Assembly (NCBI GenBank): GCA_034226945.1
Contig: CP120454.1
Location: 496,001-560,000 of the forward strand
Direction: 5' to 3'
DNA: 64,000 bases
Origin: Picochlorum sp. SENEW3
Taxonomy: Eukaryota
Of this stretch, positions 12,017 to 25,134 are shown one piece after another; position 1 is the first letter of the stretch, and the number at the start of each line of letters is the position of its first letter. Below the pieces are notes generated by a model, which saw nothing but the letters and a program-made list of their open reading frames with translations, did no database searches and was not told the DNA's origin. Both the position numbers and the translations under genes were made by a program.

Positions 12017-12676
12017 CAAGGATAAATTTTATAATTTAAACGGATTTTTACATAGTATGCTGGGGCTACGGTGCCAAAACATGAAAAGAATTGGTCGACC
12101 AAATCAAGGCAAGTGTATCTGTCAATCATGCCATGGCATGCCAACACTGTATTGGTAATACATAGAATTAGGATAATCTTCTCCATTCTATCCTTTCTAG
12201 CCCCAGTTGGCAAGAATTGAAGGACAAGAATGTTGAGATGTTTCCTGTACTATCGGACAGGATTTCTTGTCCAATGGGCTCTCTTGTGATACTGGATCTC
12301 CTGAGAAGGATACGTGTTCTTCTTGTTGAGAACAGGTTTGCGTCCATATGACTGTAGTCCTCAACAGCTGCTGTGGTTTGATTGGTACTTGAGTATCTCT
12401 GAGAACTTTGTATGGCAGCTTGATATCTGATGGCAGCTCGTCGATGCCATGCGCAGGATCCAGACTCTGGCGTCTTTATGTTTGTGGGCGCCCTGCCAAC
12501 GTCGCGCCTTTTCAACATTTATCATGCATGACCTATATCTGCGATGTGCATTGCACATTCCGTTCAAGACCATTCATAATATACAATTGTATAAAACTTT
12601 CAAACTAGAAACGCAAGATATCGCGTTTCGTGAGGCAAAGTGTTGTTTGACGTTCGCGTTGGTCTCACGATCTGAA

Positions 12677-13578
12677 ATGAACGGGAAAAATCTGCTGCTC
12701 GCCGCAGCCATCATTGGTACTGGTACGCTCCTCAAATATTACAATTTTAAATTTTTTGGTGAATGGAGGCCTTGAAGGGATGATTCGGGGCATGTTGTTG
12801 ATGTTTCAGTCTCGGTGTTTTCAAAGTTCTCAACGACTCCAGGTGTCGTTGACTTTGTATCTGGGTAGCATTATGCATCGTGTGCAACGCTAAATAATTT
12901 ATATTATTTTTTTGATTTTTTGCAGTGCGCCATGTACGACCAGTGCGCCGAATGAGGAATCTCATCTCCTCGATCCATGGCCGACATGTCACGACATTGC
13001 AGGTTGACAAGTTGCCAATGGACATCGAAAGGGTGCTCGCATCTGATGATGACGATGATTTTGACATTATAATGACTGATTTTGTCAGTATTGCCAAAAA
13101 GGCGGCGTTGGTACCCCCCAAAAAGTCGTGCCTGAAAAAGACTGGTGCTCCCTCTCGAAACGTCAGCGTGACCTTTGAGGGACAGAAGAAGGCTTGGGTG
13201 CCCAAGTCGCTTATGAGGAAAAAGGCTGAAGCCAAACAAAAGGCTTTGGAAGCGGCTAAGAAAGAGGCTGAGTTACCTTCGACTCCAGCCGTGTTGAAAA
13301 GAGGCAAGGAAGAAGCTCCATGCAGTATCAGTATGGATTCCTCAGGGGATGTACCGTCTCCGTTTGGGGAAAGTATCACGTCTGGTCAGAGTCCACCCAA
13401 ACCTGTACCTGCAACGAAACGAGTCCAAATTCTCGTGAGAGCATCATCAATTGACTCTGCAGAGTCTATTAGCCCAAAGATTGACGACTGCGCAGAAAAA
13501 ACGTGCGAGTCCCCTGCAGGCGGTGATTCCTCTTTCCAACCAGGGTACGAGACTCTCACCTGCACGTCTCTCCACTGA
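12677..13578 (+). CDS. Hypothetical protein with N-terminal hydrophobic segment; probably two exons
   Basis: MNGKNLLLAAAIIGTGTLLKYY exon with a GTGAAT donor, TTTTTGCAG acceptor at ~12925, then a K/S/P-rich ORF. Confidence 0.55.
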
Positions 13579-13585
13579 AAACGAC

Positions 13586-13906
13586 ATGCCAGTACTCACG
13601 GTCTCAAATTCATACCAATTGGAGAGAAATACTCTTATACAAGTTTTGAAGAGCATGGGAATCTTTGAGTATGTTTCACACATGCTCTCTCCTGGATACA
13701 AGAGTACCATGTCACAGACAAACATGAGGACGCATCTTGACCGCAGTCCTGCCGACAACTATGTCGATTTCTCTCAGTATGTCACATCTGAAGACGATAC
13801 AAAGTATGCAGTTGATAAAATTGTTGAGTATGATTTTGCAGGCCAACTGTGTGGACTTGAAGACAATGTTGAGAATCTGAAAGATTACACGTTAAACATT
13901 GTCTGA
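13586..13906 (+). CDS. Small hypothetical protein (106 aa)
   Basis: MPVLTVSNSYQLERNTLIQ...DYTLNIV; protein-like composition; starts 7 nt after the upstream stop. Confidence 0.45.
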   Translation: MPVLTVSNSYQLERNTLIQVLKSMGIFEYVSHMLSPGYKSTMSQTNMRTHLDRSPADNYVDFSQYVTSEDDTKYAVDKIVEYDFAGQLCGLEDNVENLKDYTLNIV

Positions 13907-14008
13907 CACACCATTCCACAACAACCTTGATGTACTCTTTTTTTTTTTTCTTCCTCCTTTCCATAAAATATTTACATCTTGAAACAAAGTATGTAAAGAA
14001 AAAACCCA

Positions 14009-14624
14009 TCACCTCTTCCCACCTTTTCCATGGCTCATAGATGCCACAGCGATGGCACCCACCACCCCCAGAATGGCAGCCCCGGCACCAATCCCAATCA
14101 AACCCTCCTTGACCAGTTCATTTTCAACATGCTCTAACAACGACTCTGCCTGTCTAAAATCTGGGTTTACTTTCAGAAGACCCTGCAATGTCTCTCGAGC
14201 ACGCAGGTATTCCTTCTTCCTATACTCCCCCACAGCTTTCAGATACAACAACTCCCTCCTGCTCACCATCTCACTTGTCGACTCTGGATGCGATAAAAGA
14301 GCTTGAACGAAATCTAATCCCATATCGATGTCTCTACCTTTGGCACGCGAATGGACCAATGCCCAGCAATAACTGCATTCGAACATAAAAAATCAATGTT
14401 GAGCAGACAGAGAACTAAAACTCCTGTACTTGAAGTTTCCCGTACTTGAAGCATGACTCCATCCCTGGGTCATTCGCAGCTAATGTTCTCTCTTCATATT
14501 CCTTTTTAAGTGCTCGAATATGCTCTTTGGCTGTAAATGGTATTCCTGCGGCATCCCTGTCCGGATCCTCTTGAGACTTGAAACCCGCAAATATATCACG
14601 AATTGGGATATTGAATAATGCCAT
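14009..14624 (-). CDS. FIS1: Mitochondrial fission protein Fis1
   Basis: YCWALVHSR, RRELLYLKAVGEYR, NPDFRQAESL, C-terminal TM GLIGIGAGAAILGVVG; one intron. Confidence 0.9.
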
Positions 14625-14671
14625 GATGTAACTTGTTTTACCCGTCACATGAAATATTTTAATTATTTTCC

Positions 14672-16446
14672 CTACTTGGATTTTCTCAAGGGTTTCTTCT
14701 TTTCAACCTTGCCCGGCTGATGGCCTCGCTCCTTCAAAAAGGAAGGCTTCCTCTTTTTCTTCTTGTCGTCCTTTGTCTCTTTTTCATCATCCTCTTCTGT
14801 CACACGATTTCTATTCCTATTTCTATTTCTCACCTTTTTCAATTTGAGCAACCAAGGGTCCACATCACCCCCTGCTGCTTTGATAATGTTTGCCACACTG
14901 CGGAGTTTGCTCACATCATCTTCAGTAAAAAAGGTAATGGCTTTTCCATGACGCCCAGCCCTTCCTGTTCTACCCACTCGATGCACATAATCAATAGTTG
15001 AATTCGGAAAGTCCATGTTGATCACCGTCTCCACGCCAGCAAAATCCAACCCTCTGGCAACCAAATCTGTTGCAATCAAAACCCATGTGGTGCCCTGCCT
15101 AAACTTTTCCACCGCCTTCTCTCGAGCTGCTTGACTTTGAGAGGCATGCAGAGAGTCGACATGAACGCCTTCAAACATGAGTTCTCGATGCACCTCTTTT
15201 GCCCTCTCCTTGGTATTGACAAAGATCAAGACGGGTGGGCGCAATCCATCCGATATCAATTGCCGAATGGCAAGTAGCTTTCCATTCTCCCGCCCGACAA
15301 ACAGCAACTTCTGCTCCACCGAAGTCGCAGAAATATTACGTTCTCCTACAGTGATCCTCAGGGGATCTCTCAAGACAGACCGTGCCAAATTCTCCACCGT
15401 CTCTGGCAATGTGGCACTACATAAACATCTACAAATACCATCATTCGAGCATGCCGCCAAGCATGCATCTATTTGATCCGCGAAACCCATTTCAAAGAGC
15501 TTATCAGCTTCATCCAACACGAGCGTTCCTACATTATCCAATTGAATCTTTCCCTCTTTTGCCATAGACTCCAACCGCAAAGGATTTGCCAGCAATATAT
15601 CCACTTTTGAGAAATCCGTTCCCGCTGCCGTCGCCTTTGACAACACACTACATCGAAGTTTCAAACCGGGGAGTAACGGCATCAGAACCCGCCCAGTCTG
15701 CATACTCAATTCCTTTGTTGGCGAGATCACCACAGCCCGAATTCCCTCCACCTCTGGATTCTCATACCGCTGCTTCTTTACCCTCATAATCAGAGGGATC
15801 AGAAACGCCAACGTCTTACCACTACCCGTCGGAGCAACAACCATGAGCTCACGCCCCTCACAGAGTGCCGGTATTGCCTGCTTTTGAACTGCTGTGGGAG
15901 TCTCAAACCCACCCAGTCTCAGATTTGCCATCAACCGTGCATTCGGCCCCGAATCCTCCAGCTCATCAAACCCTGTAATTGGTGCAGGTGGAGCCGAACC
16001 AGACACTTTGATTCTGTTTCTCTTACGCAGTACATTGGCTCTCTCGAAGGGATCCTTGGTCTGAATATCATCCCCTTCTCGAGGAGCACCTTGTTGTTTT
16101 TCTTCGTCCTCTACTTCTTCAACATCCTCTTCTTCTTCCTCGTCTTCTATATGATCTGAATAGAACACATGAATAATATATTTATTTGGTAATACGACAA
16201 GAATGCATACAGAAAGCACAGCGAGAACCATTGAATCTTTTGGCGCCATGCCATGCATTGTTCCACACACATACCCTCTTTCTCAGCTTCAATGCCCCGC
16301 TTCTTCGTCTCTTCCAAAGCTTTTTCAAATATACTAATATCCTGACAAAATGATTGCCTATCAAATCGAATACCAAGCGTCAGAGTGTCAAACACACTCG
16401 TCGAATGGGAATGCGTCTCCATATCTCTTCGAGAGAGTACTCCCAT
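14672..16446 (-). CDS. DEAD-box RNA helicase ROK1/DDX52-like; multi-exon
   Basis: APTGSGKT, PTKEL, DEAD, SAT, PPVLIFV, HRVGRTGRAG; N-terminal LTLGIRFD exon. Confidence 0.9.
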
Positions 16447-17561
16447 TCACAATTACGCCTTCTCGAATATAGAGGGCTACTTAATAACTTTTTATCATCA
16501 ATTGTATCTTACATGGCTGGGTGCAACTCGAATGTCATGTATCCCATCATCATGATGGTTGTCAAGATGCTTGCTCATGGGCCATGGGCCCGGCCCCAAT
16601 TAATTGGGTTGGATCCATCCACTGTCCAGACAGTAGTCACTGCATGCAGTGATTCACAGGTCGTTGACCCGACAGACCTTGTGAAGGGATTGGCATGAAA
16701 GCATACTACCACACAAGTGGGCCAGTAGTTAGGATGATGATGGTGGATGATTTGCTCTACAGATTTCAAGCATATACCCTGTAAGAGCGTGCACTGAACG
16801 TCCTGAGACTAATGGTTAGGTTCGGTCGGCTGACGGTCCACACCGTAGTAGAGACTGCACTATGTTGGTATCCTGGTAACACAGGCCTTGATTATAATGT
16901 GTTACACGATGGTTTATGTAGTAGAATGGTAAATAATCTTATGAGTCCTCGAGTATAGACTCTGGTTCATGGTTATATTGTGTAATCTTCTTGGTAGCTT
17001 GATTCCTTAATAAGAGAGTGCCTTGAGGCATCATCTGTGCTGTTACATACCCACATACTAGTTGTATGATACTACTGGTATGATACCAGGCGAAGTAGGT
17101 CGCCTGGCGAAAAATCTATAAATTCATACATCAACCAAAATGTTGTTTTCAACCAGATGCTGTACACACTTTTAACAAAGAAAGTTTGAAGGAGTAAAGG
17201 TGAATTTTCAAACTTCGGCTTCGAGAAGCTTCTCGGCCATATATGGTTGCTTTCGAATAAGCGTTTCGAAATGCAGGCTGCGGCGTCTCGGAAGAGGAGG
17301 CGTCTTTGTTTTCGCTTGTGGAGCCTCAGCACGTGATCGAGTGGCTCGATAGCATATAATTTGTTGGTTTGATTTGTAACATCTCATTACGAGAGTGATT
17401 ATCATTGTTTGAACGGCTATAACACGTGAGTGTGATGTGTAACACTTTTGGAACTTTTGGAATCGCTGTGCCAGAATCTCAGAATAAAAGGCTGAGGCCG
17501 ATGGTCAGCACTCCATATGAAAATAGAAGTGTATCAGTGAAAAAAATATCTGTTTAGCCTC

Positions 17562-19100
17562 TTGCAGCCACACGACCACGCGACAAACTTGGAACAGCCA
17601 CGCAACCACGCGACAAACATGGAACAGACACGCGACCACGCGACAAACGTGGAACAGGCACAGAGCGAATTCATCAATCATCTTGATCACGTGGCCCATT
17701 CAAAGTTCAAAAAACTGCTCATGACAGTTGGTGATGTAACTACTGGTATGGTCCCATCTCAAGTTGAATTCAGTTCATTTTTGGACAAGTGTAGGGAAAC
17801 ATATTTTCCATTATTATTGGACACAATTGGTAAAAATGTGGATGAACATCTCACCATATGGTGTCTACAACAATCAATGGATGAGGATGAAGACAAGTGT
17901 CGTCATTTGCTCTTTTGTGCTGTGGGACTCGACAGACCAGACATTATACAGGTCGTCATGAAATACTTTTTGGATCGGAATGTGTGTGCTACATATGACA
18001 CAATCTCCAGGGTCATCACTGATGCCATCCACCTTGCTGCCATGAGGGGAGATGTCACCATGGTGGGGTTGCTTGCTAACTACATCAAGTACGATCCCAA
18101 AAGAGGGACATGTTTGAAGCCTCGTTATTTTCACATTCATGAGACATACAAACATGAGGAACATGATTGTATGGGACCGATTCAGACTGCCGCGTACTAT
18201 GGGCATGTTGGAGTCATCAACCTGTTGGTGGAGCGTGGATGGGTGATTGACCGTTTGCAAGAGGAGAACAATTTATGTATACGCCATTACGCGTCCTCTT
18301 TCCAAAGTATGGTCGAGCATTATCCGTTGCACATTGCTGTGTTGGGAGAGCAATACGATGTTGTCCAATACTTGGTGGAGCAGCATGGATTATCTTTCGA
18401 GAGACTTGACGATTGCAATGCGACGGTACTCTACTACGTCAGGAGCCAGGGCATGTTGAAGTTTTTGAATGAAAAATACAACATAGTGTCTGACTTCTAT
18501 CAATTACACTATCGCTCTCATCTTGGTAGTCCTCTCGCCTGTATAGATGACCCCAACTTGTTCGAAGCAATGATCACAGCCGGTATTGATTTGGAAGACC
18601 ATTTGGACCTATACGGTGGGACAGTGCTATTTGATGAGAACAAGTTGGCTTCCGCCGATATTGTGAGATATATTCTGCGCCACGGGATCGACCTGGATGC
18701 GAAAGACAATGATGGTGACACAGTTTTGCACGTCGCTGCCCAGTACAAGATCCCATTTGAGGTCATGGAACTATTGGTGGATCATGGTGCACCTATCGAT
18801 GTATTGAACAATAAACAACAGACGCCGTACAATGTTGCATGCTCAGTGAATGCCAATGTTCGTGTCAGAGAATTATTGAGGATCGAACAATCACATCCCG
18901 TGAATCATAAATGTGAAGATGTTCCAGCAACAGAGGAGAGTGGACGCTGTATCATCTGCCAGGAGAATATCGCAAGGATTTCCTTCGTCGGGTGTGGACA
19001 TGTCGCCTGTTATTATTGCTACAGTGAAATTTGGTACAGGTCCCATGAGTGCCATGTCTGTCGCAGACCACTGGACAAGGTTATCAGAATCTTCCTTTGA
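17562..19100 (+). CDS. Ankyrin-repeat plus C-terminal RING (C3HC4-type) protein; start uncertain
   Basis: AIHLAAMRGD, PIQTAAYYGH, PLHIAVLGEQ, DGDTVLHVAA; RING CIICQE...GCGHVACYYC...CHVCRRP. Confidence 0.85.
   Translation: MQPHDHATNLEQPRNHATNMEQTRDHATNVEQAQSEFINHLDHVAHSKFKKLLMTVGDVTTGMVPSQVEFSSFLDKCRETYFPLLLDTIGKNVDEHLTIWCLQQSMDEDEDKCRHLLFCAVGLDRPDIIQVVMKYFLDRNVCATYDTISRVITDAIHLAAMRGDVTMVGLLANYIKYDPKRGTCLKPRYFHIHETYKHEEHDCMGPIQTAAYYGHVGVINLLVERGWVIDRLQEENNLCIRHYASSFQSMVEHYPLHIAVLGEQYDVVQYLVEQHGLSFERLDDCNATVLYYVRSQGMLKFLNEKYNIVSDFYQLHYRSHLGSPLACIDDPNLFEAMITAGIDLEDHLDLYGGTVLFDENKLASADIVRYILRHGIDLDAKDNDGDTVLHVAAQYKIPFEVMELLVDHGAPIDVLNNKQQTPYNVACSVNANVRVRELLRIEQSHPVNHKCEDVPATEESGRCIICQENIARISFVGCGHVACYYCYSEIWYRSHECHVCRRPLDKVIRIFL
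17571..17660 (+). repeat. 30-bp tandem repeat, about 3 copies, coding
   Basis: Unit core ACCACGCGACAAAC(T/A/G)TGGAACAG, encoding HDHATNLEQP / RNHATNMEQT / RDHATNVEQA. Confidence 0.85.
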
Positions 19101-19213
19101 TCTTTTTCTTGGTTGATGTTTGAACCTCTTGTTTGACAACAACTTGTAAACAAGAGTCTTTTGTTTTTGTATTACATTGTAACCGGACCGGTTAAACCGG
19201 AAAATATAAAATT

Positions 19214-19509
19214 TTAATTACCGGCAAATGCCAAGCCACCAAGTCCATTGGCCACTTTGAACAGATTGAATGAGGTTGCAAAGACCATGATTTTCCCTGC
19301 TTGGTACCAGGCCTGAGTTTAGCCACAATGTGTGAGGTCTGGATGCGACTGTAATTGCACGTTCCTGATCCGCTTGGCGATTCCGGGAATAGGGCAAAAC
19401 TGGAATCCCCATTGTACGAATCCAATGGCACATACACAAAGAGCAACTCTTTGACTGGCCGTGAGAAGTCGATGGGGATCTTTTTTACGGTGCTTTCACC
19501 CTCAGACAC
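19214..19509 (-). pseudogene. NCLDV double-jelly-roll major capsid protein, C-terminal fragment (internally deleted, frameshifted)
   Basis: IPIDFSRPVKELLFV, SFALFPESPSGSGTCNYSRI and, after a frameshift, KIMVFATSFNLFKVANGLGGLAFAGN* match in order the MCP motifs LNFNHPVKEL, SFALxPExxQPSGTxNFSRI and IFAxNYNxLRIxxGMGGLAF. Confidence 0.85.
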
Positions 19510-19592
19510 TATGCAATAATTGTGAATGCATATTCCAAATCAGATTAGCATTTGAAAATACCGGTATTTTACCCGCGCAACAGGCTGACGAC

Positions 19593-20503
19593 ATGGACGT
19601 GTCAAAAAGCTCAATGCAGGAGATGGGGCTTCTCCCTCTTTAGTGAAACGAATTTCTGAAGCAGATATTGATAAAGATGGCACCTTGAGCATTCATGAGG
19701 TATTCCAGTTGGTTCGTAGCGAACAACGAGCCCAGGCTGACCGCAAGCTATTTCGCAACTTTTTGATTGCCCTGATCGTGGCCAACCTTATTCTTGTCGC
19801 TGTCGTCGTAGGATCAATGTTTGCTATTGTGAAATTGACGAATGAATTGGACGATGATGGAGGGGTGCTCGTGAGCACCAACACTGGAGACGTCATTGGC
19901 ACTGGTGTGGCAACGGACCTCGTTGATTTGTCACGCATGTTCAACGACTCGAGTCTAGCTGAGCAACTCAATCAGGTCATTGTGATGGAAGAGGAAAATT
20001 TTGCGGTGCATCGGGTCGGAAGCATCCGGGCATTTCCTGAGAAGGAGGCAGTTGTAATTGTGAGTCAAGATGGCAGCCTCATTCAGGTGGACACGTATGG
20101 AAGCTGGTATTTAGATGACACCATCGGGAAGCACCTGGCCAGTAACGCATCAAGTCGGATCAGTGATGCAGGCAGGCGCCTTCAATCTACTACATGCGAG
20201 TCCATTGTTAAAGATGTCTCCTGTACTCCAATGGGAGAGGTGACATTTGGCACACAATCAATATCACATCCCTCTAGTTGTGTGTCTGCCATCCCCCAGT
20301 GTGCAAAGTGCGAATCGCGTGACTGTCGTGGCTTTGATTTGCGTCGAAGAGGTATATATGTGTGGGCTGAAGATGCAGATTACAGGCAATGCGTGGAAGA
20401 GAAGTGTAACAAAATTCTTGGCTGTGGGTATACAGTTCAGTACCCTCCACTTTTGCCACCTGTCGTGTCATGGCATCCTCATCCGCCCAACTGCAGGGGT
20501 TGA
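19593..20503 (+). CDS. EF-hand plus transmembrane protein with Cys-rich C-terminus; 5' end lacks an in-frame ATG (possible pseudogene)
   Basis: DIDKDGTLSIHE EF loop, TM FLIALIVANLILVAVVVGSMFAIV, GRRLQ motif, Cys-rich tail; ATG 19593 is in a different frame. Confidence 0.6.
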
Positions 20504-21088
20504 TTGAGGACTCTAGTTCTTTTCTTTTTTCACTCTCTGATCTGTACTTTGCTGAGTAATGTTCCCCATCACCTATACCTAGCCTTGCCAGAAAACCTGT
20601 TATTTGCCTGGACGTGTTACTGGGAATGACAAGAAAACATCTCTGATGTGATTGAGGCTGCTTGAAATATAGACGCATTCACCACGCTCTGGTAGTGAAA
20701 TCATTTTTATTACCCACCATGATGCTGACACATATGTCTCTCATATATCCATACATGTGATGTGCGTGTGTGACACATGTAGACATGGCTGGGGGTGATC
20801 ACCCATCATCATTCCACATATGAGACTTGTTCACACACAGATCTGTGAGCGACCTACAGCGAGATGACCCTTCATATCGCCTGCCAATAGCCCTATTTCT
20901 ATTATTCTAAACAATTATCTCTAATACATTCTGATGTATAGCTTGTGATCAAATATATTTTCGTCAGTCAGTCGCCAGACAAGTATTATTTCAGCCTTTC
21001 AAAAGGAGAGAGTCGAGCATTAGACACTGCAGTTTGCCTGTAGCACAAAAGTATTATATAAATTTCATATAGCATAGAGATTCGCGTC

Positions 21089-21956
21089 ATGAGTGCAATC
21101 CGCTGTGGTCTTGTTCAACCACATTGTATGTTGAATTCTGGGTACAAGAAGACACAGCACCACTCCAGACCATGGCAGACGACCCATGGATGTACATATA
21201 ATTACAGAATGATGCATCATCCGTCACTTGATACTCCCATGGGGAGTGGGCAGAGCCGTATGGCAGTATGCCATGGCTTCTTTTTAAACAACTTATTTGG
21301 TGGAAGGTACGTTATTATTATTATCTTCTTCTTCTTCAGTATCATAGTAATAAAGGTAATAAATACATGATTGTTGAACGTGATGGATTTGCAGTGATCC
21401 ATCCAGCAGCAGCAATAGTAGTGAAAGTCTTGGGCCAGACCCAGACCCAGTGCGGGATTGGTCACAGGAGGATATCGATCAGGTCGTGATCATGACCTGG
21501 AAAGTTTCCAATAGTGATATAGAATACGATATAGTGTATAGAAATGGTGGCCTTGTGGATGCTGCTGCCGTGGAAGCATTATGTGAGAAAGTGAACTGGC
21601 CCAAAAGGCCTCAACACAAGGTGGATGCCGCCCTTAAGAATAGCTTTTTGGTCTCATCAATTACATTAGAAAAACCGGGATGTCTTCCTGAAGAAAGGAG
21701 GTTGATCGGAACAGCTCGATGCACGTCTGATGGTGCTTTTAATGCGACAATATGGGATGTCATGGTGGACCCTGAATTTCAGGGGCAAGGCCTTGGAAAG
21801 GCCTTGCTGGAACTCATGGTGAGGACATTATTGAGAAGAGAAATCAGCAACATAACCTTGTTTGCGGATGCACAAGTTGTCGATTTTTACAAGCGCATGG
21901 GATTTGATGTGGATCCTGAAGGTATCAAGGGCATGTTCTTCAGATTCGGTTATTGA
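21089..21956 (+). CDS. Plastid GNAT acetyltransferase (NSI/SNAT-like); two exons
   Basis: LCEKVNWPKRP, ARCTSDGAFNATIWDVMVDPEFQGQGLGKAL, ITLFADAQVVDFYKRMGF. Confidence 0.9.
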
Positions 21957-22163
21957 GCGAGATACTGCCTGATCTGCGTTGATTACATTTTCATTTTCAT
22001 TATTATTTCTTCTGTGAATACATACATAAACCTTTTTCGAGTCGTCGTGGGAATTCCGCCAATTGGCTGGTATAGAATAGTGATGATCTGATATTTCAGA
22101 GACATTTCGGTAGCATCTGAAGGTTTAGCATTGAAATACAGAATGCCAATCATTAAAAGGAAT

Positions 22164-24065
22164 ATGTCCACTGTTATTTTGTTGTTGATAGTCGCATTGT
22201 CAGCTGTGAGGGGCGATGTGACGGAATCAACTGACAACAGAAAATTGCATTCTTGCCGAGAAAAGCTCCTAGAGTTGGAAGATGAGCATGAGGATCTTCT
22301 GAAGCGATTTAATGTTTTGTCAGAAGAGTATAAAGATGTAAAGAAGGAGCTTCGGGCTACTATCGCGTGTGAGACGACGTTGGATGAGACGACTCGACTG
22401 TTGGATGAGGTGAGGGAGGATGTGGAGCAGAGGAAGGAGCAATTGAAGAATATGGATGTTTTATTGGTTCAGTGTGAGAGGAAGAGGGATAATTGTCTGG
22501 TGGATCTGCATGTGAGTGAGACGAGTTTGGAGGAGTCGTTGGCCAGGGAGCGGCAGTTGGAGAGGCAGTTGAACAAGGAGGATTGTGTGGCGGTGAAGCG
22601 GGATGCTGTGTCGTATCGAGACCAGGCGGAGCAGTGTCTGATTGATTTGGATGCATTGAAAAAGAGGGAGGAGGAGTTGGTGAAGAGAGCTGGAGATCTG
22701 GAAGAGGTGGAGAAGGAATTGGAGACGACCAAGGGGTTGTTGGAGGCAGCATCGAGCGATCGGGAGTCGTTGAATGGGCGAATGGATGCGCTTGAAAAGA
22801 AGACTGTTGTGTTGGAAGAGGTTGAGAGGGAATTGGAGACAACCAAGGTGTCTTTGCAGCGTGCAGAGTCTTCATTGGAGTCTAGAAGCAATGAATTGAA
22901 TGCAACAAAGACTGCATTGAACTCGTTGCTTGAATCCCTTGATTCACATTTACAATATGAGGCGCTGAAAGACGCCCATGAGAAGGAGATTTTGCCATAC
23001 TGGTTGGAACGTCTCGTGAAGAAGGGTGTGCATGTCTGTGATGAGGCATACCACAAGTATGTGCAGCCATTGCATGAATCGTTCGGGGAGGCTGTTCGAA
23101 TGAGAAAAAAGCATGTTGCTGGGAGGGTAAAGAGTATTCATGGGACTGTCAAGTATCACGCATCTCGAGTGGTGAGTGTGTATGTGGTGCCAATGATGTC
23201 AAAAACAAACTTTATGCTGCGTGCACAATTCCCAGGTGGATGGAGGGCCTGTGTGGATACCACAAGATCTGTGGCGGAACTGAGTAGAAATGTGGTAAAT
23301 ACATATTTGAATACATGCCGAGAGTTTGGAATGCATATCAAGCATCGTGGTATGGAGGCGATTGAACATCAGATTGTCAAGGTGTCATTCCTGCAGCAAC
23401 TTGATTCACGCATTGTTGCCTCATCAGCATTTTGGACACTAGTGGGGCTCATCACTCTTCCGCTTGGCATATTTATTTTCATCATGGTGTCCAAAGTCGT
23501 GGTGTATTATTGTAGGAGTGGTACCGCGAGCGTTTCTATTGTGAATATATCAGATGCTATTGGGCTGATTGAGGAGGATATTGGTTATACATTTTCACTC
23601 AAAGACAATCTCATTCAGGCATTAGAAGGCTCGCCTCATCTCTATCAGGTTGGAATGGCAGTGGTGAATCTGTTGCTCGCGAAGCAGCAGAACAATGCCA
23701 GAGCTACGTTGGCAGAGGTGGAAGCAAGAAGCCTTTGTAGTGCGTCTCTTGGCCGAATCGTGCAACGCGGGCCTGGCAGGAAGAGTTTACAGGCAGCACG
23801 ACAGCAGAAGAATGTTCTCTATATTGCCATATTAGCTGCCGTGTTTCGGGATTCACGGGAATCAGTTCAAACTGTGTTGAATGTTTGGAATGGCAGGGGT
23901 TCCCCAGCAGCAGTGCCTCCTGTGAGAGAGGAAGAAATAGAAGAGGAAATAAAAAAGGAAGAAGATGAGGAAATAGAAGAGGAAATGAGCGAGAAGGATG
24001 AATCGGAGGATGTTGAGTTGGAAGATGATGCATCTGAAGATGATGAAAGTGACACATCATCATGA
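22164..24065 (+). CDS. Signal peptide, coiled-coil and TM protein with a degenerate RNase III-like domain and acidic tail
   Basis: MSTVILLLIVALSAVRG; long heptad region; TM AFWTLVGLITLPLGIFIFIMV; IEEDIGYTFSLKDNLIQAL...AILAAVFRDS. Confidence 0.7.
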   Translation: MSTVILLLIVALSAVRGDVTESTDNRKLHSCREKLLELEDEHEDLLKRFNVLSEEYKDVKKELRATIACETTLDETTRLLDEVREDVEQRKEQLKNMDVLLVQCERKRDNCLVDLHVSETSLEESLARERQLERQLNKEDCVAVKRDAVSYRDQAEQCLIDLDALKKREEELVKRAGDLEEVEKELETTKGLLEAASSDRESLNGRMDALEKKTVVLEEVERELETTKVSLQRAESSLESRSNELNATKTALNSLLESLDSHLQYEALKDAHEKEILPYWLERLVKKGVHVCDEAYHKYVQPLHESFGEAVRMRKKHVAGRVKSIHGTVKYHASRVVSVYVVPMMSKTNFMLRAQFPGGWRACVDTTRSVAELSRNVVNTYLNTCREFGMHIKHRGMEAIEHQIVKVSFLQQLDSRIVASSAFWTLVGLITLPLGIFIFIMVSKVVVYYCRSGTASVSIVNISDAIGLIEEDIGYTFSLKDNLIQALEGSPHLYQVGMAVVNLLLAKQQNNARATLAEVEARSLCSASLGRIVQRGPGRKSLQAARQQKNVLYIAILAAVFRDSRESVQTVLNVWNGRGSPAAVPPVREEEIEEEIKKEEDEEIEEEMSEKDESEDVELEDDASEDDESDTSS

Positions 24066-24111
24066 TCTGTACACTTTCAGAATATCCATTACCTATATAT
24101 ACACATAACAT

Positions 24112-25134
24112 TTATTTGTGTCGTCGTTGCGCCACGCGACCCACTGATTGAACAATCCATGCCATCACCAGGGGCACACCGACCCGTTGGACCACCATAC
24201 CAAGAAATTTCCTGATCCCATCTCCATGTGCTTGTGGCAATAACCTTGACACCTCTCGCTCTCGATCATCTATAGAGCGAATACTATACACATTTGTTTC
24301 CGGAGTTATCTCCTCTGACCCGAACATGGAACCTTCCAGGCTGCATACACGATCAAGAAGGCTATTCATCTGCTCCTGCATGGAAGAATACATCCTCCAC
24401 ACCGCCTTGGAATCCTCCTCCATCCTCCCAAGCATCCTTCTCATCTCTTGAATCTGCCTCATATCATCCGTCTTTGACACAGTCTGCTCCTGCATCAATC
24501 GACGAATCACGCCATCGAGAAACAACACGTGCTTTCTCAGCTCGCTACTTTCCCCACTCCCAGATTCATCCATCCGAACCATCAGTGTTTGAATCGCATC
24601 ATGCATCTGCTCCATTTTCCTATCCCTCTCTCCAGCCGCTGCCCTCACCAAACCGCTGATATCAGCATTATCCTTCTCATACGCATCTATATACTCGTTC
24701 ATCGAATCCACATCCAGCTCCACATCCTCTTCAATTGTCCTCACAAGCTCCATCACAGACTCTGTCCCCATGGTTCCATCAGTCACCCTCTCCATGTGAA
24801 ACGAGGGCAACTCGTCCAACGACAATCTATTCGGACTCGCATGCATCGCTTTAATTTTCATGTCCTCGGACGTGTCGTAGACCGCATCACTGCTGCGCTG
24901 CCCTGCTGCCTTGACAGCAGATTCTTTCGTACATGCCTCATATGTCTTGAACAAGAGAGGAGACAACGGTGTATCACCTAATTCCCCCACAGAATCTGAA
25001 CTAGAATGCGTAGACATACCCTGCTGTGCAGATTCATACTCGCTTTCATCGCTTTGCTTCTGTTTCTGTCGTCCAACTTGCAACCGAAACACTTTCTTCC
25101 TTGTCTCGTCTCTCATCATCCTGAAGGATTTCAT
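24112..25134 (-). CDS. Hypothetical coiled-coil protein with hydrophobic C-terminus
   Basis: 340-aa intronless ORF. Confidence 0.65.
   Translation of the reverse strand: MKSFRMMRDETRKKVFRLQVGRQKQKQSDESEYESAQQGMSTHSSSDSVGELGDTPLSPLLFKTYEACTKESAVKAAGQRSSDAVYDTSEDMKIKAMHASPNRLSLDELPSFHMERVTDGTMGTESVMELVRTIEEDVELDVDSMNEYIDAYEKDNADISGLVRAAAGERDRKMEQMHDAIQTLMVRMDESGSGESSELRKHVLFLDGVIRRLMQEQTVSKTDDMRQIQEMRRMLGRMEEDSKAVWRMYSSMQEQMNSLLDRVCSLEGSMFGSEEITPETNVYSIRSIDDREREVSRLLPQAHGDGIRKFLGMVVQRVGVPLVMAWIVQSVGRVAQRRHK

What the first reader, a model, noticed from the sequence alone, without database searches (positions are those of the whole stretch)
16450..20900. About 4.4 kb accessory island interrupting conserved housekeeping genes
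Seen: between ROK1 and the GNAT gene lie ~1.1 kb of non-coding DNA (most gaps here are under 700 nt), an ankyrin-RING gene, the MCP relic and an EF-hand/TM gene with a damaged 5' end. Inference: an insertion of viral or mobile origin in which the capsid gene decayed while the cargo stayed open.
Basis: inference. Interest (0 to 1): 0.7.

Follow-up and report, generated by a model that had tools for sequence, protein, structure and literature searches.

The report
Recent giant-virus DNA scrap in Picochlorum
One chromosome copy of the tiny green alga Picochlorum carries a 2.3-kb piece of foreign DNA holding the tail of a giant-virus capsid gene and an intact ubiquitin-ligase-like gene. A closely related copy lacks the piece, so it is a small, recent trace of giant-virus contact rather than a 4.4-kb island.

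Summary
A 14,329-nt DNA contig from another public run matches the window on both sides. It jumps from 17267 to 19571 with 5 other letters in between. The real presence/absence segment is therefore 17268-19570 (2303 nt).

The segment holds the ankyrin-RING gene (17610-19100, +). It also holds, tail to tail, a remnant of a giant-virus capsid gene (19509-19217, -). The remnant matches 90 of 98 aligned residues of a full-length 512-aa capsid protein from public assemblies (P0150). P0150 aligns end to end with chlorovirus PBCV-1 MCPv1. The remnant lacks residues 1-355 and 392-450 and has one frameshift.

The EF-hand/membrane gene lies outside the segment. It is present and intact in the empty form and has relatives at 98 to 41% identity. 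It is therefore a resident host gene, and the insertion sits 23 nt before its start codon.

Best reading (0.55): recent end-joining capture of chlorovirus-like DNA. A viral origin for the ankyrin-RING gene is inferred, not shown. Giant-virus fragments in Picochlorum genomes are already reported in general, so interest is moderate.

The parts
14672..16270 (-).
   Evidence: Pfam DEAD 129.4 bits and Helicase_C 98.9 bits. PDB matches are all DEAD-box helicases, including the DDX52 N-domain at 8.8e-43. The ROK1/DDX52 name itself was not established. The region is covered by the 14,329-nt contig of run X7.
16774..17046 (.). 273-nt dispersed repeat, a separate presence/absence difference
   Evidence: X7's main contig skips 16774-17046, with 6 letters fitting both sides. 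Depth there is about 120 against 26 on the flanks, with several other contigs, and the repeat is also in RNA run X19. The same 6-nt word stands at both edges. There is one copy in the window.
17268..19570 (.). The real indel: 2303-nt segment, present here and absent from a closely related form
   Evidence: One search shows the joint 17267>19571 with 5 other letters between. It is seen in X7 (contig of 14,329 nt, depth 26.2, 255 letters on each side) and in X5 (depth 5.4, side only 29). X5 also holds contigs identical to the window inside the segment (17130-17555 and 18975-19524, 0 differences). No terminal inverted repeats or target duplication were found.
17565..17661 (+). Three tandem 30-nt repeats, read as 10-residue repeats at the N-terminus of the ankyrin-RING ORF
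   Evidence: the repeat finder family D1: 3 copies at 89-100% identity with spacing of 30 nt.
17610..19100 (+). Ankyrin-repeat plus C-terminal RING gene (496 codons from the ATG; open from 17562)
   Evidence: Pfam gives Ank_2 84.3 bits, Ank 65.1 bits and zf-C3HC4_3 41.1 bits. All eight Cys/His ligand positions can be read in the translation. The gene matches WPT13342.1 of Picochlorum sp. SENEW3 at 97% identity, differing mainly by a stretch inside the RING that the public model omits. The next best of 117 hits is 37% identity over 11% of the query.
19217..19509 (-). Remnant of a giant-virus capsid gene of the PBCV-1 MCPv1 type
   Evidence: Blocks from tblastn: 19509-19402 matches P0150 residues 356-391, 19401-19291 matches 451-487, and 19297-19217 matches 486-512 followed by the natural stop, one frame off. 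90 of 98 aligned residues are identical. P0150 residues 1-355 and 392-450 have no counterpart anywhere in the window. The frameshift lies in a short A run at 19291-19297. It is also present in an independent contig of run X5 (18975-19524, 0 differences). P0150 aligns over residues 4-510 with PBCV-1 MCPv1 (8h2i, E 9.9e-72).
19510..19570 (.). 61 nt between the capsid remnant and the right edge of the segment, matching nothing
   Evidence: tblastn with six capsid proteins at E up to 10 finds no further block. The 60-aa ORF overlapping it has no Pfam family at a meaningful score.
19594..20503 (+). Right flank: resident EF-hand / single-pass membrane gene with a 1-nt frameshift near 19617-19621
   Evidence: The relatives P0118, P0138 and P0139 (303 aa, 98% identity) begin at the equivalent of the ATG at 19594 and read through. 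The window shifts frame in a short G run and reaches a stop at 19640. The gene lies outside the indel and is present in X7's contig. Spliced-RNA contigs of X15 cover 19938-21304. The public model WPT13343.1 starts at an internal Met and is 173 aa.
21089..21956 (+). Right-hand neighbour: GNAT acetyltransferase gene with a 5' exon and an intron at 21305-21392
   Evidence: Pfam Acetyltransf_1 52.4 bits. A GT..AG joint 21304>21393 is seen in an RNA contig of X15.

Best explanation
A 2303-nt piece of DNA from a chlorovirus-like giant virus (Nucleocytoviricota, PBCV-1 MCPv1-type capsid lineage) was joined into a chromosome break in one Picochlorum haplotype lineage.

The break lay in the shared upstream region between a DEAD-box helicase gene and an EF-hand/membrane gene, 23 nt before the latter's start codon. 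Five host letters were lost at the site. There are no repeats at the ends, which fits non-homologous end joining rather than transposition.

The piece carries an intact ankyrin-repeat/RING gene. By its domains it would act as a RING-type E3 ubiquitin ligase, using the ankyrin repeats to pick substrates. It also carries, tail to tail and 116 nt away, the last third of a capsid gene that is now non-functional. That remnant has no first 355 codons, an in-frame loss of 59 codons and one frameshift.

The insertion separates the EF-hand/membrane gene from its upstream region. That copy also carries a frameshift, while the copy on the empty form is intact.

Shown: the indel and its limits, the viral nature and damage of the capsid remnant, and that the EF-hand gene is outside the indel.
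Inferred: the direction (insertion rather than deletion), a viral origin for the ankyrin-RING gene, ligase activity, and any effect on the EF-hand gene.
For: Indel. One search shows a 14,329-nt contig of DNA run X7, differing from the window by 216 letters over about 9.4 kb (2.3%). It lies on 12520-16773, 17047-17267 and 19571-24500 and bridges 17267>19571 with 5 other letters. No X7 contig lies on 17312-19316. The same joint occurs in X5, which also holds window-identical contigs inside the segment, so X5 holds two forms.

Viral nature. The representative search gave 11 hits at E <= 1e-3. Nine of these were scanned with Pfam, and 7 are double-jelly-roll capsid proteins. P0150 is identical at 29/36, 36/37 and 27/27 residues, with the natural stop kept. 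The shifted C-terminal piece alone gave 70 tblastn matches in the giant-virus loci searched, the best ones at the ends of their capsid genes. P0150 aligns end to end with PBCV-1 MCPv1 at E 9.9e-72, against 2.8e-37 for the main capsid protein. A member of the sister cluster sits on a 359,912-nt contig.

Direction and recency. Of 117 hits to the ankyrin-RING protein, only SENEW3's own gene is close. The neighbouring EF-hand gene, by contrast, has six clusters of relatives down to 41% identity, three of them on contigs of 57-84 kb. The last 62 aligned capsid residues differ from P0150 at one position.

Context. 37 further long ORFs of the window gave only cellular families (28) or none (9).

Plausibility. 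Chloroviruses encode ankyrin proteins that engage the ubiquitin ligase machinery, and a RING E3 ligase (PMC7019647, passages read). Regions with Nucleocytoviricota signatures are reported in four Picochlorum assemblies (PMC11633385, passages read).
Against: No homology ties the ankyrin-RING gene to any virus.
- Three scans of the viral collection (ankyrin-RING, P0124, P0150) found nothing.
- Among 68 giant-virus capsid loci there is no ankyrin-RING neighbour, only one RING-only match.
- The protein database holds close capsid relatives on contigs of 5.8, 23.7 and 360 kb, yet no ankyrin-RING relative above 37% identity. The nearest sampled viruses therefore probably lack this gene next to their capsid gene.

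The gene looks cellular.
- Its codon usage is host-like (z = 0.11), and the segment's GC content (0.443) and tetranucleotides are unremarkable.
- Its domain layout is that of cellular ligases. Atlas look-alikes are XBAT33-like, mib1-like and Chlorophyta clusters (leads only).

Other weaknesses.
- The 61 nt beyond the capsid remnant are not capsid sequence, so the piece is not a simple colinear cut from an intact capsid gene.
- Five extra letters in the empty form fit a deletion with filler as well as an insertion.
- The X5 joint has only 29 letters on one side, under the tool's own bar of 31.
- No RNA evidence for the ankyrin-RING gene was obtained.
- The EF-hand frameshift lies in a homopolymer and was not checked in an independent run, so it may be an assembly error.
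Confidence: 0.55

Rival explanations
1. Composite or host-derived cargo. Only the capsid remnant is viral. The ankyrin-RING gene is a cellular gene, from this alga or another eukaryote. It was either ligated together with a capsid scrap in one multi-fragment end-joining event, or copied here from another genomic site where an old viral scrap already lay beside it.
For: Codon usage is host-like at z = 0.11. The domain architecture is cellular, and the nearest Atlas clusters include Chlorophyta and XBAT33-like ligases (leads only). No viral relative was found in three scans of the viral collection or among 68 capsid loci. Close capsid relatives on contigs of up to 360 kb have no matching ankyrin-RING protein in the database. 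There are 61 nt of unrelated sequence at the capsid end of the segment.
Against: No paralogue or donor copy appears in the protein search, although SENEW3's annotated proteins are in it. After SENEW3's own gene, the best hit is 37% identity over 11% of the query. The two genes are 116 nt apart, tail to tail, inside one indel. Giant-virus accessory genes often have host-like composition and no relatives.
Confidence: 0.25
2. Deletion, not insertion. The segment is an older viral remnant, ancestral to these Picochlorum haplotypes. The 'empty' form arose by a 2.3-kb deletion repaired with 5 filler letters.
For: Five letters in the empty form have no counterpart in the filled form, as seen at end-joined deletions. 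The composition of the segment is fully host-like, which could reflect a long residence. The capsid gene is already damaged in three ways.
Against: No ankyrin-RING orthologue turns up in relatives whose EF-hand gene is 86-41% identical and sits on long contigs. The limits of the indel coincide with the limits of the foreign material, and the DNA on both sides is ordinary host sequence. The capsid remnant is still 90/98 identical to an intact capsid protein.
Confidence: 0.13
3. The capsid piece was never a decaying full gene in the alga. It was already a short capsid-fragment ORF in the donor virus, next to a RING-type gene, and was transferred as such.
For: The internal loss is exactly 59 codons and in frame, and the 5' limit is followed by unrelated sequence rather than more capsid. 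A 105-codon ORF is still open. Earlier notes of this scan describe giant viruses with rows of small ORFs copying capsid pieces, and RING genes with capsid-derived tails. Those notes are unchecked leads from other genomes.
Against: Nothing of the kind was seen in the 68 viral loci fetched here, though they were not examined for it beyond tblastn. The frameshift separates the last 27 residues, which are 27/27 identical to P0150. That looks like recent damage to a once continuous reading frame.
Confidence: 0.07

Closest known systems
Giant-virus (Nucleocytoviricota) sequences integrated in green-algal genomes, including the 'regions with Nucleocytoviricota signatures' reported in four Picochlorum assemblies (PMC11633385, passages read). 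Also endogenous giant viruses that vary between Chlamydomonas reinhardtii isolates (PMC9693826, abstract in search listing only).
   Same: Giant-virus DNA sits in a green-algal chromosome. It is present in some genomes or haplotypes and absent from close relatives, and a hallmark gene is eroded.
   Different: This is only 2.3 kb with one hallmark-gene fragment. The reported Picochlorum regions have a median of about 15 kb, and GEVEs span tens to hundreds of kb with several hallmark genes. Table S6 of PMC11633385, which lists those regions, was not in the part of the supplement I could read, so I cannot say whether this site is listed. The SENEW3 chromosome-scale paper (PMC11092101) has 0 occurrences of 'viral', 'capsid' or 'ankyrin' in its main text.
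PBCV-1 capsid protein variant MCPv1 (PDB 8h2i; PMC9617893, passages read)
   Same: The remnant's full-length relative P0150 (512 aa) aligns over residues 4-510 with MCPv1 (520 aa) at E 9.9e-72. That is far better than with the main capsid protein Vp54 at 2.8e-37.
   Different: Only about 98 residues of the C-terminal jelly roll survive here, in two frames. No capsid function is possible. The donor clade is known only from unnamed metagenomic proteins: none of the 120 listed relatives carries a virus name.
Ankyrin-RING E3 ubiquitin ligases of cells (plant XBAT/XB3 type, Mind bomb type), and the chlorovirus ankyrin / Skp1 and RING (A481L) ubiquitin-system genes (PMC7019647, passages read)
   Same: N-terminal ankyrin repeats and a C-terminal C3HC4 RING of the zf-C3HC4_3 type. 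Atlas look-alikes carry these names.
   Different: Outside SENEW3 there is no relative above 37% identity over 11% of the protein. The protein has a unique N-terminal part with three 10-residue repeats. The described chlorovirus ankyrin proteins carry an F-box-like tail, not a RING. Activity is untested.

Membership tests
Nucleocytoviricota double-jelly-roll major capsid protein (Pfam Capsid_N PF16903 + Capsid_NCLDV PF04451) | Sequence match to the C-terminal jelly-roll domain | tested here: met
   Pfam gives 25.2 and 13.8 bits in two frames, each under the 34.8 cut-off, but colinear. 90 of 98 residues are identical to the full-length capsid protein P0150.
Nucleocytoviricota double-jelly-roll major capsid protein (Pfam Capsid_N PF16903 + Capsid_NCLDV PF04451) | N-terminal jelly roll present and one uninterrupted reading frame | tested here: not met
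   There is no counterpart of P0150 residues 1-355 or 392-450 anywhere in the window, and there is one frameshift. It derives from the family but is a remnant, not a working member.
Giant endogenous viral element (GEVE) | A long tract with several giant-virus hallmark genes | tested here: not met
   The segment is 2303 nt. 37 other long ORFs of the 64-kb window gave only cellular families (28) or none (9). The rest of the genome could not be searched because no genome is held.
RING-type E3 ubiquitin ligase with ankyrin repeats | Ankyrin repeats plus a C3HC4 RING with all eight metal ligands | tested here: met
   Ank_2 84.3 bits and zf-C3HC4_3 41.1 bits against a cut-off of 27. The ligand positions were read in the translation.
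RING-type E3 ubiquitin ligase with ankyrin repeats | Ubiquitin-transfer activity with an E2, and expression | not testable with these tools
   No RNA contig lay on the gene in the two RNA runs laid. This is not evidence of silence, because those organisms may lack the segment.
Transposable element | Terminal repeats, target-site duplication, transposase or integrase | tested here: not met
   No terminal inverted or direct repeats at 17268/19570. Five target letters are lost rather than duplicated. No transposase family is present.
EF-hand calcium-binding proteins (for the flanking gene) | Canonical EF-hand loop | tested here: inconclusive
   Pfam EF-hand_1 gives 17.2 bits against a cut-off of 25.4. 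Most of the loop and the positions beside it are invariant in 7 sequences. There is only one EF-hand.

The most novel reading that the evidence does not exclude
The segment is a virus-to-host gene transfer caught almost in the act and already in use. Either the ankyrin-RING ligase, or the still-open 105-codon capsid-fragment ORF, is expressed by the alga. It would then interfere with infection by the donor virus clade, for example by tagging a viral protein for degradation or by poisoning capsomer assembly. That would explain why the ligase gene stays intact on a haplotype where the neighbouring host gene has been damaged.
Probability: 0.07. Interest if true: 0.75.

Novelty: new member of a known kind. 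Interest (0 to 1): 0.4.

Why it matters
No virus has yet been isolated on Picochlorum, although pond surveys suspect phycodnaviruses (PMC11633385). This site gives a concrete molecular link between a Picochlorum strain and one capsid clade. That clade is MCPv1-type and chlorovirus-like, and its intact relatives are present in public assemblies. The link could guide virus isolation and host assignment.

The site is also a clean, small example of how giant-virus DNA enters a compact algal genome. The junctions are blunt with no repeats, the insertion is present on one haplotype lineage only, and it lies directly in front of a host gene.

It corrects two public gene models. The ankyrin-RING model omits part of the RING, and the EF-hand gene is annotated from an internal start.

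The kind of event itself, giant-virus fragments in green algae including Picochlorum, is already known.

Tried and rejected
- Whole genome: none is held for this window, so other copies of the segment could not be sought.
- Viral-collection scans: the EF-hand family, P0124, the ankyrin-RING protein and P0150 all found nothing.
- Capsid-alignment scan: this gave 68 loci at only 30-40% identity. Local tblastn found no ankyrin-RING gene beside their capsid genes, only one RING-only match in L054.
- Full records behind five of those loci are not held.
- Metagenome scan with the EF-hand family: one true relative on a 1.9-kb contig without neighbours. Synteny in distant relatives could therefore not be read. 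The contigs behind P0119-P0121, P0268 and P0270 could not be fetched.
- Composition and codon usage give no foreign signal.
- Hairpin between the two convergent genes: a local stem exists, but the fold is not better than shuffles (z = -1.32, 18 of 200 shuffles as good). It is no evidence of a viral terminator.
- Rfam on 16200-21500: no match.
- Eight small ORFs in the gaps: nothing meaningful in Pfam.
- Table S6 of PMC11633385 was not in the readable part of the supplement.
- No contigs of RNA runs X15 and X19 lie on 17312-19316. This is not evidence about expression or absence.
- The 14,329-nt length shared by X7's contig and the contig of P0138 suggests they are the same contig, but this is not proven.
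- Earlier notes of this scan: nothing for this genome or these sequences. A word search gave only leads from other genomes.
- Transposon reading rejected: no terminal repeats, duplication or transposase.

Full report
WHAT THE WINDOW IS. The window is nuclear DNA of a Picochlorum green alga. The ankyrin-RING ORF matches WPT13342.1 of Picochlorum sp. SENEW3, and the EF-hand ORF matches WPT13343.1 on the same 1.56-Mb record. Thirty-seven other long ORFs gave ordinary cellular families (CAND1, 6-phosphogluconate dehydrogenase, copper ATPase, trigger factor, TBP, citrate synthase and others) in 28 cases and no family in 9. None matched a viral family.

CHECKING THE OBSERVATION. All four items are real.
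- The stretch 16271-17561 (1291 nt) is the longest of 41 gaps between long ORFs. The median gap is 267 nt and 34 of 41 are under 700 nt.
- The ORF at 17562-19100 has strong ankyrin and zf-C3HC4_3 RING matches.
- On the minus strand, 19509-19217 encodes pieces of a giant-virus capsid protein. Pfam scores are sub-threshold (25.2 and 13.8 bits, cut-off 34.8) but fall on successive parts of the profile in two frames.
- The library-wide search gave 11 hits at E <= 1e-3. Of the 9 scanned with Pfam, 7 are complete double-jelly-roll capsid proteins and 2 are bacterial Ig/cadherin-repeat proteins. Two hits were not scanned.
- The EF-hand ORF lacks its start. The relatives P0118, P0138 and P0139 begin at the equivalent of the ATG at 19594 and read through, whereas the window shifts frame in a short G run.

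THE DECISIVE RESULT. I laid contigs of four public runs on 12500-24500.
- A 14,329-nt contig of DNA run X7 (depth 26) matches the window with about 2.3% differences. It covers 12520-16773, 17047-17267 and 19571-24500.
- It omits 16774-17046 and, separately, 17268-19570. The second omission is replaced by 5 other letters.
- No X7 contig lies on 17312-19316.
- Run X5 (a named culture, coded organism B) shows the same joint with the same 5 letters. It rests on one contig of depth 5.4 with only 29 letters on one side, under the tool's bar of 31.
- X5 also holds contigs identical to the window inside the segment (17130-17555 and 18975-19524). At many sites on the left flank (12936-13548 and 15527-15797) about half of its depth carries the other letter. 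X5 therefore holds both forms, either as two haplotypes or as two strains.
- The SENEW3 genome paper reports that the strain is at least diploid (PMC11092101, passages).

The unit that comes and goes is thus 2303 nt and contains the ankyrin-RING gene and the capsid remnant only.

THE CAPSID REMNANT. A search with the first representative hit (P0124) brought much closer full-length proteins. Against P0150 (512 aa), tblastn gives three colinear blocks:
- residues 356-391 at 29/36 identities;
- residues 451-487 at 36/37, in the same frame and directly abutting the first block;
- residues 486-512 at 27/27, followed by the natural stop, in a shifted frame.

That is 90 identities in 98 distinct residues. 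Residues 1-355 and 392-450 have no counterpart in the window. The 61 nt between the first block and the segment's right edge are unrelated to the capsid. The frameshift lies in a short A run and is present in the independent X5 contig (0 differences over 18975-19524), so it is not an assembly error.

P0150 aligns from residue 4 to 510 with PBCV-1 MCPv1 (PDB 8h2i) at E 9.9e-72, against 2.8e-37 for the main capsid protein. MCPv1 is a capsid-protein variant with a large surface insertion that builds special capsomers (PMC9617893, passages). The donor was therefore a chlorovirus-like virus, and the gene was the MCPv1-type paralogue.

None of the 120 listed relatives carries a virus name. A member of the sister cluster lies on a 359,912-nt contig, a size expected for such a virus. 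The first block is the least conserved, but the same stretch also varies between the intact proteins P0149 and P0150. The differences therefore look like virus diversity rather than decay in the alga.

THE ANKYRIN-RING GENE. It has 496 codons from the ATG at 17610. At the N-terminus are three 10-residue repeats. Ankyrin repeats run through most of the protein, and the RING at the end has all eight ligand positions. By its domains it should be a RING-type E3 ubiquitin ligase whose ankyrin part selects substrates. This is an inference from the families.

The gene is an orphan. Of 117 hits, only SENEW3's own gene is close, and the next best is 37% identity over 11% of the protein. Evidence for a viral origin is indirect:
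- it lies 116 nt from the capsid stop, tail to tail, inside one indel;
- chloroviruses are known to carry ankyrin proteins that plug into the ubiquitin ligase machinery, and a RING E3 ligase (PMC7019647).

Against a viral origin:
- codon usage is host-like (z = 0.11);
- the layout is cellular, with cellular look-alikes in the Atlas (leads only);
- there is no relative in the viral collection, and none beside 68 capsid loci;
- no relative appears in the protein database, although that database holds close capsid relatives on contigs of 5.8, 23.7 and 360 kb.

I put a viral origin for this gene at about one half.

THE EF-HAND/MEMBRANE GENE IS A HOST GENE.
- It lies outside the indel and is present in the empty form.
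- It has relatives at 98, 86, 56, 52, 45 and 41% identity, with a strongly conserved EF-hand, membrane span and following domain.
- It has no relative in the viral collection.
- Its Atlas look-alikes are eukaryotic algal clusters (leads only).
- RNA contigs of run X15 cover it. X15 shows canonical introns in the Fis1-like and GNAT genes, so it is truly spliced RNA.

Without the 2303-nt segment and the 273-nt repeat, the distance from the helicase ORF to this gene's ATG would be 752 nt instead of 3323 nt. That is a normal divergent upstream region. The foreign DNA sits 23 nt before the ATG. It is a fair inference, not shown, that this copy lost its promoter or leader and that the frameshift followed. 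However, the frameshift is in a homopolymer, and I could not confirm it in an independent run.

DIRECTION OF THE EVENT. Insertion is favoured.
- The edges of the indel coincide with the edges of the foreign material.
- No ankyrin-RING orthologue exists among relatives that do have the EF-hand gene on long contigs.
- The capsid remnant is still very close to an intact capsid protein.

A deletion with 5 filler letters cannot be excluded without an outgroup. There are no terminal repeats, no target duplication and no transposase. The likely mechanism is therefore end joining at a chromosome break.

COMPARISON WITH WHAT IS KNOWN. Giant-virus DNA in green-algal genomes is well documented. A pond study reports regions with Nucleocytoviricota signatures, median about 15 kb, in four Picochlorum assemblies (PMC11633385). 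Its table of regions was not readable here. The SENEW3 chromosome paper does not mention 'viral', 'capsid' or 'ankyrin' in its main text.

This site fails the definition of a giant endogenous viral element, because it has one hallmark fragment in 2.3 kb. It is best filed as a small giant-virus-derived insertion, a new member of a known kind. Its points of interest are:
- it is polymorphic between near-identical haplotypes;
- it names a capsid clade for a host with no isolated virus;
- it carries an intact ligase-type gene.

VERDICT. Interest is 0.4.

Noticed in passing
window 16774-17046: A 273-nt element is absent from the related 14.3-kb contig. The same 6-nt word stands at both of its edges. 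In a metagenome run it has about 4-5 times the depth of its flanks, with several other contigs, and it is also present in an RNA run. It looks like a small dispersed (MITE-like) repeat, with one copy in this window.
   Followed up: partly
window 18990-19040 (inside the RING of the ankyrin-RING gene): The public gene model (P0001 = WPT13342.1, 477 aa) omits a stretch inside the RING that holds four of the eight metal-ligand positions, apparently as a predicted intron. The uninterrupted ORF keeps a complete RING. No RNA evidence either way.
   Followed up: partly
window 19594-20503: The EF-hand/membrane protein belongs to a conserved family without a Pfam family. It has one EF-hand, one membrane span, a conserved domain of about 100 residues and a variable Cys-rich tail. 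It has six clusters of relatives, and feature look-alikes in diatom, haptophyte and chlorophyte clusters. The public model WPT13343.1 starts at an internal Met because of the frameshift.
   Followed up: partly
window 14373-14445 and 21305-21392: Canonical introns are supported by spliced RNA contigs of a related organism. One lies on the minus strand between the two exons of the Fis1-like gene. The other, on the plus strand, joins a 5' exon (from about 21089) to the GNAT domain exon.
   Followed up: partly
window 17565-17661: Three tandem 30-nt repeats encode 10-residue repeats at the start of the ankyrin-RING ORF. The annotated ATG (17610) lies inside the second repeat.
   Followed up: no
window 16145-16275: In RNA contigs of organism C, 129 nt at the 5' end of the helicase ORF are replaced by 7 other letters, without canonical intron ends. 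Several runs also lose alignment in the acidic, low-complexity N-terminal region (16100-16150). This end of the helicase gene appears to be variable.
   Followed up: no
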